From Podarcis vaucheri (lineage: Eukaryota), in assembly GCA_965113315.1 (NCBI GenBank), contig OZ220369.1: a stretch of DNA of 64,000 nucleotides; one strand, written 5' to 3'. Below are positions 440 through 12,500 of the stretch, piece by piece. The position numbers and the translations under genes were made by a program. Every line of letters starts with the position of its first letter. Positions within the stretch are counted from its first letter, which is position 1. Under the pieces are notes generated by a model. The model saw only the letters and a list, made by a program, of their open reading frames with translations. It did no database searches and was not told the origin of the DNA.

Positions 440-568
440 GTCACGCAGGTTGCCAGACAGCCAGGCCCTCCTGCCCCCTCCCCTTACTCTGCACATGAAA
501 TAGGCAAGGGGCACCCATCCCTTGCTGCAACGCCACCAGGACATGCCTCCTCCCCAAGCCTCACCCAG
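440..568 (+). CDS. EIF4G3: EIF4G3 upstream exon (129 nt), N-terminal extension or 5'[46 protein letters not shown]
   Basis: ctcctcacag| acceptor, cag|gtaagg donor; 43 codons open and in frame with the next exon; Pro-rich like the eIF4G N-terminus. Confidence 0.85.
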
Positions 569-3500
569 GTAAGGTTTGGCGCCTGTTTCTCAGGTCTGAG
601 TTGCCTTTCTATAAGTTCATGGGGTGTGGGTGAGATCTTGGCTTTGCGCAGTGCTAACCCTGGTCCGCATGCTACTTTCACTTGAGCTGCTCTTCCTCTT
701 GCTGGCCAAGGATAGGGGAAGAGGAAAGGGGTTCCCTTTAGGGCGCTCCCCACCCCCTCAATTGGACATTGGCAGGGACGCCTCTCGTGTCAGACTAAGC
801 GCTTTTTTTGCTAAGTGGCAGTGATTTTAATAACATGCCTTAAGGCAGGTACATTTTTCTTTTCTGACCAGAACTCATTGCATGTGCTGAAAGAGAAAAT
901 GGACACAGTAAAAATAATACACATGGACAAGGAATTGAGATAATTGAAAGCCATAACTTGTTTTTAATCACTTAATTCCTCAAAACGTTTCCAAGAGACG
1001 AGGGATGACGTGGCAAAGGAGAGGAGGAATGTATTTGTAGTTAGCAAAGGTAGGGCAGATGCGCTGTCCAAGGGTGGGCCTCATGCCTAGGCAATGTGAC
1101 CTGTGGCAGCTTGAGGCAGTGAGCTGCTGAGCACCAAGGCCTCCTCGGCAATGATGCCTCAAGGCAGAGAGTGTGGGAGCTTTCAGAAGCATACAAGTGG
1201 AGGGGGCGGCGGCTCCTTCTTTGTTTCTGTAGATTCCTGCATGAGACTAGAAGTCTTGGTTCTCGGACAGATGAGCTGGTGCTTGAAATCCTATTTGGAA
1301 CATAATCAGCTGCTTTGATTCCCATGATAACTTCCAGACCCTCAAGCGTGATGCAGGGCCCCATTTTGGTTCCTTAGTAAAGGAGGAATTGGGGGTGAGG
1401 CGAGGTTGAGCTTTTTTTATACAGGCATGAGAGAGCCCTCTGCATCTGTTTCCTCCAGCCAGATAGTGCATGAGTCACTCAAGTTGTTGCACCTTTTCCA
1501 GTGGACTTGACATGTGCATCATGTGACAGTAGGCATGACACCCCACCAGTTCAGCTCAAAACTTGCTGCCAAGTTTATTGATAGAAAAGGATTTTGTGTA
1601 GTCTTGTGTGTTAAGAGCCTAACCAAAGAAGACAAAGAGTGCTCTGAAAGTTGTGTGGAGTGGCTACTGTAGTAACTGTTGTGGGCACCAGAAATAGCTA
1701 CCCTGCCCAGCTGCATCTCCATGACCTCCAACTCCTGTGTCAATCCCCAATATTCCAGAAGAGAGATGAAAGCCATGACCTTTTCCCACCTCCAGGCCTT
1801 CTGCTGAGGCATCAGAAAAAATAAACTGCAAATATTCCTTACGAATTTATCAGTTGAGTCCTGAGTACAGTGAGGTTCTTCCACAGAAAGTTGCTCCAGA
1901 ATGTTGCACCTCTGATTGTGTAACGCCTTCTCCAGATTTCTTACCTGAACTTAAGTCACGGCCAAGTCTTCTTAGTTTGATTCTAAACAAAGGCAAGGAG
2001 TGTCCTCCTCGCCTCAGAAGGTCTTTGTCTGCCAACAAGAGGCACTTCTTGTTCATTTGTTATAGATCTTTCTCTGATGGGTCCAGATAATTTTGAATGC
2101 CACCGCTTCCTCCACTTACAAAAAAGGGTGATCCATTGCTCACCCACTCAGGGCTTAAGGCAATTGTTAACCAATATTTTGCCCGTATTCTCAGTTGTTA
2201 ACAGGACATAAACCCTTGCTTCTTTCCAGGGCACAGGCCTAAATTTACCAAAAGCAATTCAGATTTTTGATACATGGCATAAGAATATATAAAGTCTTGT
2301 ACATTCATCTCTGGGATGTTGTCATGAGTGTAGCGTGCTGATCATAGGAAAATGTATTGGTCACCTGTCTCTGATAACTGATCGTATTTCTCCACTTTTT
2401 CGTTTTCCCCCCTGGGGAGGCAGTCTTACTGAAGCACATAGTAGCTTGTTCTGTAAAAAGGGTTGCCTGCATAGATCCATTTGGTTTCCCCATTCAGATC
2501 CCTGCAGCTTTACAGGAGACTTGGAGAGGGGGGTGTCAAACAAAGGAGCTGGTCTCCTGCAGGGGGCGTTGAGAATTGATGGCAGCTGGTCCACAGACCT
2601 TTCACATTGCTGTTTTGAGATTAGCAGAGTCCTGCACTTGAAGCCACTGAGAGCATAATGACAGGAGAGGTCACTACTAGTGGGTACCCTTTTATCTAGA
2701 GTACCAAGCTCTGCTGACGACAATTCCCTAGTCCTAGAGGAGGGGAAGAATGGGTAGAAATGTCCCTGGGATTTTTTTGTTCATTTAGCCCATTGTAAAA
2801 AGGCAGGTAGAAAGGGAGGTCGTCCCCATCCAGGTGTGTAGAAAGTATTTTGAGAAGTTGGAGGGGATGCATCTGCTCCCATCAGCCTGGTAGAAGGAGA
2901 GAGAGAACGGAGCATTGACGTGGAGATGTGCCAACCCCTGTCCATTCCCCACCCACCCGCCATCATTCTCGTCCTCCCCACTCCCCCTCTCTCTGTCTCT
3001 TTCTCTGTCACTCTCTTCCTTTCTCTCTTACTCTGTCGCTCTCTTTCACTCTCGCTCCAGCAGCCAGGAGGGAGGAGGGACAGAAGCTTTCCACCCCACC
3101 CAAGAGCCAGCAGTCTTTTTGAAGATCCAAGGGAACTGGTGCAAAGGATTCTGGGATGTGGGATGGTGAGTGACAAGAGGAAAAAAAAGGTTAAGTGATG
3201 CCCCGCTGGAAAAGCCTGGCTCTTGTTTTTCTAATGGGTGGAGATCTCATTTAGGGTGGGGCCATTGTGGCTTACAGGGGAGGCCCCTCCTGCAAAGGCG
3301 TGGAAGGCTCAGGGCAGAAGGAATGTTCATGGGGAGCCTTAAAAACACGTTGAGAACTTGAGATGTATGGAGGAGCTCCATTCAGTATTTTGCCCTTGAG
3401 GCATCTTACCATGCCATCTGGACTTTTTGCTTCAAAGCTGTTGCTCTGTCTTGGAAAGTGTTAAATTCTATGGCAAAGTTTCAAATTTGGAGTAGGCGTA

Positions 3501-9500: not shown

Positions 9501-12500
9501 TGGAGGAAGGGTATGCTGCTCTGGCACTGCAATTTGCTTTAAGCTGTAGGACTGCTCCGGGGCTCAGGGTGTGGTGTTCTGTTGAGTGGGCTGCCTCTGT
9601 TGAAATGGGGTGATGGGGAGTTTGCTTGCTTATGTGAATGGGTCCTCCAGCCTGTGTTATGAGCTCTGTTGCTGGGCAGGTTTCCCCTCCTACCAGCAAG
9701 CTAGCCTTACGCAGGGGCCTGTTAGGAGAAGGCACTGCTTTTCTTGTGAAATGACAAGAGGTGTCATTGCTTAGACTTAATTGCCTGCAAGAGGTTTACC
9801 TGTTTTATCTGTGTTGCTGCCGTTTGCAAAGGGCCTTATCTCCTCCTCCTCTACAGGGCCCTGAAGCAACCAAGGGGCCTGGGAACTGGGCGGTTTGCTG
9901 TAGTCTTACAAGGAGGCTTGGACTGTTAATGGGAGCAGGAAGGAAGGTGCATTTAACTCCTGGCCACATAGAGTCAAAGGGCAACAGTAGAGCTTCTTTT
10001 TTAAAGTCTTCTAAAACTGTGTGGGTGTCAGATGTGCAAGCTGCTATTGTCCTGTCTTATAAAGAGGCACTAAGCCTCAAGCGCATCACTGTGACATAAA
10101 TCCGGAAATGTTTTTCTCGAGCCAAATAGTCTCCTGATGAATATTGTAACGGGCTGGATATTCTGCTGCTTCTTGGCATGAATTAGCAAAACATTTCTGG
10201 CGCTAAGTGTGCCACTGAGCCATCCAGCAGGGAGGAGGATGAGGTGTGTGAGATTCTGTGCCAGTGAGGTGAGCAAGCCAGCAGGGTGGGAGTACCTGGT
10301 GTATAGAGGCTCAGAAGCAAATGGTTTGGCCTACAGGCACTGCTGGGGCCAGGCAGACACAGAGGACAGCTATCTCTGCCATGGTTTAGCCCCCCCCCCC
10401 CAGCATCATTCAGGAGATGAAACATTGGGCTGGACAGATTCTTCCTCTTGACCCAACATAGCAAATGTTGCAGTTAAGTGCCTTCAAGATAACCATTGCT
10501 TTTTAAGTGAGATAGTAGACACCCCCTAACTTACAGAACTGTTGAAATCTGAAGTTAAGGTTAGTTCCTTGTATCCGGGCTTTTGCATCAATGACGTATG
10601 TCTGAAGGTACAAAGTGTGAGTCTAGTTGAGAGTTGAGGCAGCAGCGGGAAGGCAGTTTCCATCCCGGTTGCCGTTGCTTGTCATGTCTTTAACCATCTT
10701 TCTTCTCTCTCCCATGGCAGGCTCCTTACCCCTCTGGACAGAACGCCGCACCGACTACGCTGGTGTACCCGCAGGCCCCTCAGACGATGAGCACCCAGCC
10801 TCAGACGCGCTCGCCGGTAAGGGAGCCCTTATTTTGCCTGCGTGTTGTGCTGCATCTGTCCAGCAAAGCCGTTGCATTGCACTTCCTAACCTTTTTGCGA
10901 GTAGCTTCCCTGAGAAAAAGGCACCCGAAGGACTTCCCCTCTGCTTCCAGGTGGCACAAGTGACGTAGTGTTGAAGCCCTCTGGGGCTGTCAGAGATGAA
11001 GAGTCAGATCCTTTTTTGAGATGCCTGCCTGCTCTCCAGAAGCCTGTAAATGCCTACTCCTGGGCACTTCTGTCATTGCCTACGGTACTGGTGCCCTGCT
11101 GCCAGAGGGGCCCCTGGCCCAAGCTGCCTCCACAGAGCCTTCTCTCCTCAGCTCCTGCTGCAGGTCTTGCTTTGAGTGCTCTGCCTGAGCCCGGCTTCAA
11201 TCTCTTGTGTTGATCCACACCACCTTGCATCATAAGTTTGAGTGATACAACCTGTGCCTTTCAAGGGTGTGTCTTCTGGTGGTGGCTGTTGTGTGGTAGA
11301 TGCATGGACACCCCCCTCCCTTTGTGTCTTTACCTTTTAGTGCCCCCTTCTTTAAAGGGCTTGTAGCGAGTGGGGAAGGAGAAACTTGTTTCCTGCGGCC
11401 AGTGCAATTCTGGGCTCCTGGGCTCACAGCCCTGCTGGTTCCAGCTGCACACTCTTGTTTTTTGTCTAGAAAAGGACCCTCCAGCTGATTCCCTCCTCAC
11501 TCAGCCCCAGTAGTTGGCCACAATCCTGCTCTATGACAAACTGGTATTGAGCAGCAGAAGGGACACCCTTCTATCCCCAGCCACCCTTACTGTAGTAGGG
11601 CATGTTCCTCCCTGTTACGATGCGCAAAAAGCAAAAGCTGAAACATTCATGGCTAAAACGAGAGGGGAGAGTCTGACTCGAGAGCCGTGTCTCTAAACCA
11701 GTTTTCTTGACAGCCCAGCAGAGCAGTGCCAGTACATTGCCCAGACAACTGGAAGCGGAGGAAGGTTTTGGAACAGAGTCCGGTTTACAGGTCCTTGGCG
11801 GGAAGAGGCTGGATAAAATACTGCATTGTAAGCAATATAACAAACTGTACTCCCTTCTTGCAGGCAGTCGTGCCCCCGCGGCACCCCTTTCAGTTCTGTT
11901 GCTTTTTTTGGTTTCATTTTTTGACCACATTGTTGACTGATCTACAGAAAAGCACTGATCCGATCTCTGCTTTAAGCCGCTGTGTTTTGCGGGCTGCTGC
12001 ATTCAGCGGCAGCTTGGAAGGGGCCAAGGCTGTCGAAGGTGGTGGCAGGAAGAAACTGAGGCAGGGTGCCCCCTCCTAAAAAAAACCCACAACAGCCACA
12101 ACCCAATAACCCTGTTACAATTTTTCAGGTGGTCTGAGTGATCAGGTACCTGAGATTTACTTTTCTAGCCCTTGTGGGGGATTTGCATTTGATTGAATTG
12201 GTCACTCGAGGGAAATTGGCAAGAACTCCTCAAAACAGGAACTTTCCCCAATTTTGGCAGAAACCTTAAGATGGAAGAAGCTACCGATAACGTCAGCCAT
12301 TTTTCTGTGGTCATGAACAATCCCCCCTCTAAAATATTACCCTGCGTGCAGTCTTCTGCCATCGTCACGTTTTGTGATCATTACCACCCCATGACTAAAA
12401 ATTGCTCACATAACATTTCATTTCCCCCACTCACCTCTCCTCCTCCCCTCGCAAGTCCAAAACAAATGCAAAATGGGCAAGGCTGAGCAGCTCTTGCATT

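What the first reader, a model, noticed from the sequence alone, without database searches (positions are those of the whole stretch)
543..10790. Spliced 31-codon uORF whose stop overlaps the main EIF4G3 start (AUGA), plus a minimal M-K-stop uORF
Seen: after joining exon 440-568 to exon 10721-10816, the out-of-frame ATG at 543 (G at -3) reads [31 protein letters not shown] and stops at TGA 10788-10790, overlapping the canonical ATG 10787-10789. A second uORF, ATG AAA TAG, lies at 495-503. It spans a 10-kb intron, so the ORF track cannot show it. Established: a short uORF followed by an overlapping inhibitory uORF is the layout of ATF4-type control, and AUGA overlaps support stop-restart coupling. 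Inference: the cap-complex scaffold may be translationally tuned by stress or by initiation-factor levels. Caveat: both ATGs can arise simply from His codons (CAT-G) of the in-frame extension.
Basis: partly seen in the sequence, partly recalled or inferred. Interest (0 to 1): 0.7.

Follow-up and report, generated by a model that had tools for sequence, protein, structure and literature searches.

The report
Out-of-frame ORF inside EIF4G3 coding exons
This short shifted reading frame in a lizard translation-factor gene is real and its human twin is already catalogued, but it lies inside what is predicted to be ordinary protein-coding sequence that starts 25 kb earlier, so it is likely a by-product of two histidine codons that at most dampens a shorter protein form, not a stress switch.

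Summary
The sequence is as described, but the framing is wrong. ATG 10787 is not the first start. An in-frame GCC-ATG (MSLPQK...) lies 25.45 kb before the window, and the modelled spliced frame is open for 1,816 codons, so ATG 10787 is Met186. 78 of 120 listed orthologues start with this N-terminus. Both 'uATGs' are CAT-G from His codons kept in 120 of 120. In this gene, two-fold pyrimidine sites read T in 38 of 61 cases before G and 52 of 169 otherwise. The paralogue EIF4G1 has the same AUGA and open +1 frame with no +1 ATG. Against ATF4-type control: human EIF4G3 is not arsenite-resistant. No TURBS structure was found. Verdict: known and probably incidental. The scan had not noted it before.

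The parts
416..424 (+). Branch-point-like TACTAAC plus AG; alternative acceptor that adds 5 in-frame codons (425-439)
   Evidence: Sequence; matches FISSQ in P0003/P0001; frame kept
440..568 (+). 129-nt phase-0 EIF4G3 exon, predicted coding (residues 121-163 of the modelled long form); itself skipped in some annotated isoforms
   Evidence: 581 database proteins hold its 43-aa peptide; frame open from the upstream AUG; skipped in P0124, P0139, P0150, P0159
495..503 (+). ATG AAA TAG (+1 frame) formed by His-Glu-Ile-Gly codons CAT GAA ATA G; weak context (C at -3)
   Evidence: ATG AAA TAA in L016 and in human NM_003760 (read by eye)
543..568 (+). First part of the +1 ORF; ATG formed by His-Ala codons CAT G; G at -3, C at +4
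   Evidence: unchanged in X1, X2, X13 and L016
3061..3165 (+).
   Evidence: Joints in X1, X2, X13; peptide in 34 of 120 proteins; frames
3163..3165 (+). In-frame ATG, strong context after splicing (GGG ATG G); annotated start of some lacertid isoforms (MAPYPSG)
   Evidence: P0147, P0148, P0156, P0158, P0160
10721..10816 (+). 96-nt phase-0 exon with the second part of the +1 ORF (10721-10790); peptide absent from 13 of 120 listed proteins, some of them partial
10787..10790 (+). AUGA: in-frame Met (Met186 of the modelled long form, homologous to the annotated human start) followed by Ser codon AGC; the TGA ends the +1 frame
   Evidence: the next residue is Asn in 95 and Ser in 12 of the 107 proteins where it was read

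Best explanation
The 31-codon frame and the M-K-stop lie in the +1 frame of exons predicted to be coding sequence of a long eIF4GII that likely starts at an in-frame AUG 25 kb upstream, and they are likely by-products of that protein's His-Glu, His-Ala and Met-Ser codons. Shown: the upstream GCC-ATG exists and the modelled spliced frame is open. Shown: His, and therefore CAY-G, is fixed at both sites, and in this gene T is favoured over C before G. Inferred: CpG decay is the cause. Shown: only two codon pairs after 543 could give a +1 stop, and AUGA follows from Met plus an A-starting codon. Inferred mechanism: most scanning ribosomes start at the MSLPQK AUG (or at the MCMR alternative exon) and read these exons in frame 0. 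The minority that leak past it meet no other AUG for 415 nt; some then start at 495 (weak) or 543, and those starting at 543 are lost to Met186. The result would be a constitutive, modest damping of the short isoform. It would be larger on leaders without a strong upstream in-frame AUG, such as the AUC-started human transcript, which would explain the human Ribo-seq call. No stress switch and no functional peptide are needed.
For: [quoted passage not shown] His-Glu and His-Ala 120 of 120. T before G in 38 of 61 vs 52 of 169, Fisher p 3e-5; four-fold sites 73 of 103 vs 104 of 274. Two possible +1-stop sites after 543. EIF4G1: AUGA and a fully open +1 frame over 45-46 codons with no +1 ATG. Human ORF PhyloCSF -19.5 (primates) and -238.6 (mammals), 0 MS studies. 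A third NAY-G site is AAC-G in the lizard (no ATG) and AAT-G in human (by eye).
Against: The human orthologue is catalogued as translated. The exact pattern is rare under my null (0.2-1.4%) and occurs at only 1 of 32 internal Mets. Both CAT codons and the ATA that makes the short ORF's stop are identical in lizard, bird-like L016 and human, against 14 of 33 other shared-residue codons (by eye; naive joint chance about 0.08), while the one His not followed by G differs. For His alone the downstream coding sequence has CAT before G in only 1 of 3 cases (too few to judge). The joints exon 1-exon 2 and exon 2-exon 440 were inferred from relatives' protein models and were not seen in RNA here. Contigs of X1, X2 and X7 run through the intron just before 440, so transcripts without the upstream AUG may exist.
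Confidence: 0.65

Rival explanations
1. Selected isoform gate. The +1 AUGs are kept on purpose to absorb ribosomes that leak past the upstream start and so set the ratio of long to short eIF4GII, as proposed for EIF4G2, tNOX and R3HCC1 extensions. The ratio would respond to start-codon stringency and to cassette splicing.
For: Ribo-seq uoORF in human; ATGs and stop kept in three deep lineages; low null chance of the exact pattern; precedent in Ivanov 2011; no other AUG in the first 415 nt of the long frame.
Against: Only three independent lineages, joint chance about 0.08 before allowing for CpG bias; the exon carrying the ATGs and the exon carrying Met186 are each skipped in some isoform models; the paralogue has no +1 ATG between its two AUGs; no functional test turned up in my searches.
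Confidence: 0.22
2. ATF4-type delayed reinitiation. The M-K-stop ORF is translated first; under eIF2-alpha phosphorylation ribosomes skip ATG 543 and start at 10787, raising the short isoform in stress.
For: The geometry is similar: 2-codon ORF, 39-nt gap, second AUG 92 nt before the in-frame AUG that it overlaps.
Against: Both ORFs lie inside a predicted coding sequence downstream of a good in-frame AUG; ATG 495 has C at -3; human EIF4G3 fell to 0.13 (Z -1.46) under arsenite in HEK293T. That figure covers the whole annotated CDS and could hide an isoform shift.
Confidence: 0.08
3. Coupled termination-reinitiation. Ribosomes ending the +1 ORF at AUGA restart on the overlapping AUG, helped in the cassette form by UGGGA pairing with 18S rRNA.
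For: AUGA is a known stop-start overlap (PMC5972666); the cassette form has two UGGGA 80 and 73 nt before the AUGA, one preceded by a purine; only 2.4% of positions in this gene's CDS have such a motif 40-85 nt upstream.
Against: No UGGGA in the 31-codon form. In the cassette form both motifs are predicted paired and no P1 stem exists: best 4 bp, matched or beaten by 1,370 and 1,610 of 2,000 shuffles. The motifs come from conserved Leu-Gly and Cys-Gly-Met codons. 9 of 32 internal Mets have AUGA anyway.
Confidence: 0.04

Closest known systems
GENCODE Ribo-seq ORF c1riboseqorf35 (human EIF4G3 uoORF; PMC10032668 supplementary file 2, row 356)
   Same: Orthologous position, spliced over the same two exons (26 + 70 nt), 31 codons, starts in the same His-Ala pair and ends over the same Met
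   Different: In human the annotated CDS starts at that Met, so it is classed as uoORF; in this lizard an upstream in-frame AUG makes it an internal ORF, and a cassette exon can lengthen it to 66 codons. Translation in the lizard is untested.
EIF4G3 conserved N-terminal extension (Ivanov et al. 2011, PMC3105428)
   Same: Exon 440-568 and the first 66 nt of exon 10721-10816 are part of that extension, ranked fourth for coding conservation; stated to be AUG-initiated outside mammals
   Different: That paper treats the frame-0 extension. The passages I read discuss out-of-frame AUGs for other genes, not for EIF4G3. Several mammals also have an annotated MSLPQK start.
ATF4 two-uORF delayed reinitiation (as reviewed in PMC5972666)
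   Same: A very short ORF followed by a longer out-of-frame ORF that overlaps an in-frame AUG
   Different: Here both lie downstream of an in-frame AUG, the first AUG is weak, the overlap is only 4 nt, and the human mRNA is not stress-resistant
TURBS termination-reinitiation elements of caliciviruses and influenza B (PMC5972666, PMC11921876)
   Same: AUGA overlap; UGGGA present in the cassette form
   Different: No UGGGA in the described form and no P1 stem in either form
EIF4G1 tandem in-frame AUGs (paralogue, same genome)
   Same: First AUG, short coding stretch, second AUG as AUGA in the homologous exon, +1 frame open throughout
   Different: No +1 ATG between the two starts

Membership tests
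Upstream overlapping ORF (uoORF) | Starts in the 5' leader, before the first in-frame start | tested here: not met
   In-frame AUG 463 nt upstream in the modelled spliced CDS; an alternative upstream exon also brings one. A transcript without either is not excluded.
Upstream overlapping ORF (uoORF) | Out of frame and ending at or past an in-frame start | tested here: met
   +1 frame, TGA 10788-10790 over ATG 10787
Upstream overlapping ORF (uoORF) | Translated in vivo | not testable with these tools
   No lizard Ribo-seq; the human orthologue is in the GENCODE Ribo-seq list
Conserved regulatory uORF | Start, frame and stop kept more often than the overlapping protein and mutation bias explain | tested here: inconclusive
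   Kept in 3 of 3 deep lineages, naive joint chance about 0.08; CpG bias favours CAT-G; published ORBL value not seen
ATF4-type delayed reinitiation | Short, efficiently used uORF1 as the first AUG block of the leader | tested here: not met
   ATG 495 has C at -3 and lies 415 nt inside the modelled CDS
ATF4-type delayed reinitiation | Main ORF translation kept or raised under eIF2-alpha phosphorylation | tested here: not met
   Literature value for the human orthologue only: fold change 0.13, Z -1.46 (PMC4383229 Table 1); lizard untested
TURBS termination-reinitiation | Stop-start overlap | tested here: met
   AUGA
TURBS termination-reinitiation | UGGGA motif 1 upstream of the overlap | tested here: inconclusive
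   Absent in the 31-codon form, two copies in the cassette form
TURBS termination-reinitiation | Motif 2/2* (P1) stem ending 12-23 nt before the AUG and exposing motif 1 | tested here: not met
   Best 4 bp, no better than shuffles; motifs predicted paired (definition)
Internal out-of-frame ORF (intORF) in a coding exon | Lies wholly within a CDS in another frame | tested here: met
   CDS nt 464-559 of the modelled long form
Dual-coding region with a functional second peptide | Protein-level constraint on the +1 peptide | tested here: not met
   Negative PhyloCSF and 0 MS studies for the human orthologue; the cassette +1 peptide found no 22-70 aa homologue

The most novel reading that the evidence does not exclude
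An amniote-wide pair of His-codon AUGs is under selection as a gate inside the EIF4G3 coding sequence. It absorbs ribosomes that leak past the upstream start and so sets the ratio of long to short eIF4GII. In reptiles a highly conserved cassette exon rewires the gate by lengthening the +1 ORF from 31 to 66 codons and adding a strong in-frame AUG. An initiation-factor scaffold would then tune its own N-terminus by start-codon stringency and splicing.
Probability: 0.15. Interest if true: 0.55.

Novelty: already known. Interest (0 to 1): 0.2.

Why it matters
As it stands it is a caution: an ORF catalogued as a human uoORF sits over an ancient coding extension, and its conservation out to lizards can come free from two His codons and CpG decay. 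It also shows that the textbook EIF4G3 start is an internal Met in many amniote gene models. If selection on the +1 AUGs were shown, it would give a simple, testable handle (synonymous edits) on how the N-terminal forms of eIF4GII are balanced.

Tried and rejected
Orthologous DNA was scarce. The metagenome scan gave 3 loci, of which only L016 is an orthologue; L017 and L018 are weak chance matches and were dropped. Genome and viral collections gave none, and a degenerate pattern gave 4 bacterial matches taken as chance, not examined further. The run search listed no holder on record as RNA; 4 of 24 listed runs were laid, all contigs, so no start sites, strand or levels; X7 showed no joint in this region. 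Search for the cassette's +1 peptide: no homologue at 22-70 aa. TURBS reading rejected. ATF4 reading rejected. The idea that an open +1 frame plus AUGA needs selection was rejected by EIF4G1. Coldwell et al. 2012 (eIF4GII isoforms, CUG start) was not held; I know it only from recall. Two other initiation or catalogue papers were not held, and one had no readable supplement. Eight literature searches listed no paper whose title or abstract start reports a functional test of this ORF; most hits were seen only as listings. Earlier-findings look-ups gave nothing on EIF4G3.
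Full report
1. Observation. Joining 440-568 to 10721-10816 gives the 31-residue +1 peptide from ATG 543, ending in TGA 10788-10790 over ATG 10787; ATG AAA TAG lies at 495-503 in the same frame. Frame 0 of the same join is open, and both ATGs sit across His-Glu and His-Ala codons. 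The gene is EIF4G3 of a lacertid-like lizard: the exon peptide is 100% identical to Podarcis muralis records.

2. Splicing. I laid 4 of 24 listed runs (contigs of four related organisms, only guessed to be RNA) on window 1-11500. The direct joint 568->10721 appears in X2 only (depth 18). A joint from 568 to an exon at 3061-3165 appears in X1, X2 and X13, and 3165->10721 in X2 (16.6). X7 showed neither. The cassette is 105 nt and open in frames 0 and +1. With it the +1 ORF is 66 codons and still ends at the AUGA, and the exon adds a +2 ATG and a strong in-frame ATG at its end. Its frame-0 peptide is in 34 of the 120 listed proteins, all reptile records. Both ATGs are unchanged in X1, X2 and X13 (1-2 differences over the exon, at 454 and 532); these are close relatives and add little.

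3. Where the protein starts. In 150 kb of upstream DNA, tblastn of P0003 finds an exon beginning GCC-ATG (MSLPQK...) 25,450 nt before the window (G000:C26:83,922,550; L003 position 4550) and a 76-nt exon about 8.2 kb before it. Joined at their splice sites the frame is open, ATG 495 and 543 fall at CDS nt 416 and 464, and ATG 10787 is Met186, or Met221 with the cassette. The whole model runs 1,816 codons without a stop up to the masked end. An alternative exon about 10.6 kb before the window supplies another in-frame start, MCMR (P0008, P0159). Of the 120 best hits of 581, 78 begin MS[LV]P[QH]K and 109 begin with a Met upstream of the exon; many are isoforms of a few turtle species, so these are not independent counts. 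The same start is annotated in vole, mole, hippo, shrew, tenrec, bat, mole-rat and pangolin records. Ivanov et al. 2011 (PMC3105428; I read passages, section 12 and part 3 of Supplementary Dataset 1) rank this extension fourth for coding conservation and note that it is AUG-initiated outside mammals. The two upstream joints are inferred from protein models, not seen in RNA here. Contigs of X1, X2 and X7 also run through the last 200-400 nt of the intron before 440 at depth 2-5; retained intron or an internal start cannot be told apart.

4. Chance. His-Glu and His-Ala are kept in 120 of 120 proteins, so each site is CAT-G or CAC-G. In 1,513 downstream codon pairs of this gene, two-fold pyrimidine sites read T in 38 of 61 cases before G and in 52 of 169 otherwise (p 3e-5); for His alone the counts are 1 of 3 and 3 of 15. 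CpG decay is the standard explanation (established knowledge). After 543 only two codon pairs (Leu-Thr, Leu-Val) can give a +1 stop. Resampling codons 40,000 times with the protein fixed gave each ATG 22% or 45% (without or with CpG bias), ATG 543 + open frame + AUGA 2.8% or 6.7%, the whole pattern 0.2% or 1.4%, and any +1 ATG open to this Met 43% or 61%. Among the gene's 32 internal Mets, 9 have AUGA and only Met186 has an open +1 ATG before it; 5 of 34 out-of-frame ATGs stop within three codons. So the exact pattern is uncommon, but it was picked after the fact, and one ancestral draw can be inherited by all amniotes. The paralogue EIF4G1 in the same genome has a first AUG, 45-46 codons, then a second AUG as AUGA in the homologous exon, with the +1 frame open all the way and no +1 ATG. 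AUGA and an open frame therefore arise without any uORF start.

5. Conservation. One orthologous locus came from metagenomes (L016, bird-type peptide; 1 of 3 loci). It keeps both CAT-G and ATG AAA TAA; 24 of 38 shared-residue codons are identical to the lizard's. Human NM_003760, read by eye, keeps both too. Across the three, 14 of 33 other shared-residue codons are identical, so keeping the two CAT and the ATA has a naive chance near 0.08, and more with CpG bias. The His not followed by G differs between them, which fits either selection or CpG bias. A third site (Asn-Ala) forms an ATG in human but not in the lizard. This is suggestive, not decisive.

6. What is known. The human orthologue is GENCODE Ribo-seq ORF c1riboseqorf35: uoORF, 31 residues, 26 + 70 nt, 'conserved', 0 MS studies, PhyloCSF -19.5 and -238.6 (PMC10032668, one supplementary row and passages). 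There 'conserved' means protein similarity, which that paper finds in 30-35% of ORFs overlapping coding sequence against 4-5% of others. The catalogue preprint (10.1101/2021.06.10.447896, passages) makes the same caution and separates replicated from single-study ORFs; that the 'riboseqorf' prefix marks the replicated set is my inference from the naming. PMC9789052 (two supplementary rows) lists EIF4G3 among the 2011 extensions. Under arsenite, human EIF4G3 translation efficiency fell to 0.13, Z -1.46, against a resistance threshold of 4 (PMC4383229, Table 1 and passages). TURBS and ATF4 features come from passages of PMC5972666 and PMC11921876. Coldwell 2012 is recalled only. PMC5314775 (one passage) added nothing.

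7. Mechanism. Most likely, ribosomes start at the upstream AUG and read these exons in frame 0 (inferred). Those that leak past find no AUG for 415 nt (shown), then a weak one at 495 and a moderate one at 543 (shown contexts); starts at 543 would be lost to Met186 (inferred). That gives a constitutive damping of the short form, stronger on leaders with only a near-cognate upstream start, as in the human AUC transcript. It works like a weak overlapping uORF without being one in this genome's long transcripts. The ATF4 resemblance is geometric only (39-nt gap, 92 nt to the in-frame AUG). Stop-restart lacks its motif in the described form; the cassette form has two UGGGA at -80 and -73 (background 2.4%) but no P1 stem.

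8. Verdict. Real sequence, partly wrong framing, already catalogued in human, probably incidental (0.65). A selected isoform gate remains open (about 0.2) and can be tested with alignments and synonymous edits. Interest 0.2.

Noticed in passing
G000:C26:83,922,834-83,939,750 (L003 to L001), upstream of the window: The intron after the MSLPQK exon begins GTATCCTT and has a TTCCTTGAT box shortly before its AG, the pattern (recalled) of a U12-type minor intron; one passage of PMC6239176 names EIF4G3 among U12-intron genes. An alternative exon with a U2-type donor lies inside it.
   Followed up: partly
L003, about 310-435 nt before the MSLPQK ATG (G000:C26 about 83,922,115-83,922,260): The true leader candidates: ATGs giving 8-, 40- and 6-codon ORFs. 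The 6-codon ORF follows an A-ATC-C motif like the AUC start of Ivanov 2011 and sits where the human mRNA has a 5-codon ORF (by eye). In the lizard that ATC is out of frame with the main ORF. Transcription start unknown.
   Followed up: partly
window 3061-3165: Cassette exon with 0 differences in X2 and X13. Its frame-0 peptide is identical in lizard and snake records, and a cobra gene model (P0005) carries the identical +1 peptide over 33 residues, so it looks conserved at the nucleotide level. Not seen in the mammal or bird records fetched.
   Followed up: partly
window 71-439: Contigs of X1, X2 and X7 cover the intron end before exon 440 at depth 2-5, and one X1 contig holds this intron end together with the spliced 568->3061 joint: retained intron or internal start site.
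   Followed up: no
window 440-23665: The N-terminal region is built from small in-frame exons that annotated isoforms include or skip in many combinations, including the exon with the textbook start Met.
   Followed up: partly
window 58001-60000: CpG-rich stretch (58% G+C, 123 CpG in 2 kb) after the end of EIF4G3, probably the next gene's promoter.
   Followed up: no
L001, about 2.8-3.3 kb before the window: A tandem repeat of about 51 nt, seen as repeated RKAPPKAGGG-like translations.
   Followed up: no
window about 3680-3745 and 4866-4985: Interspersed repeats hit by many unrelated contigs at high depth in all four runs.
   Followed up: no
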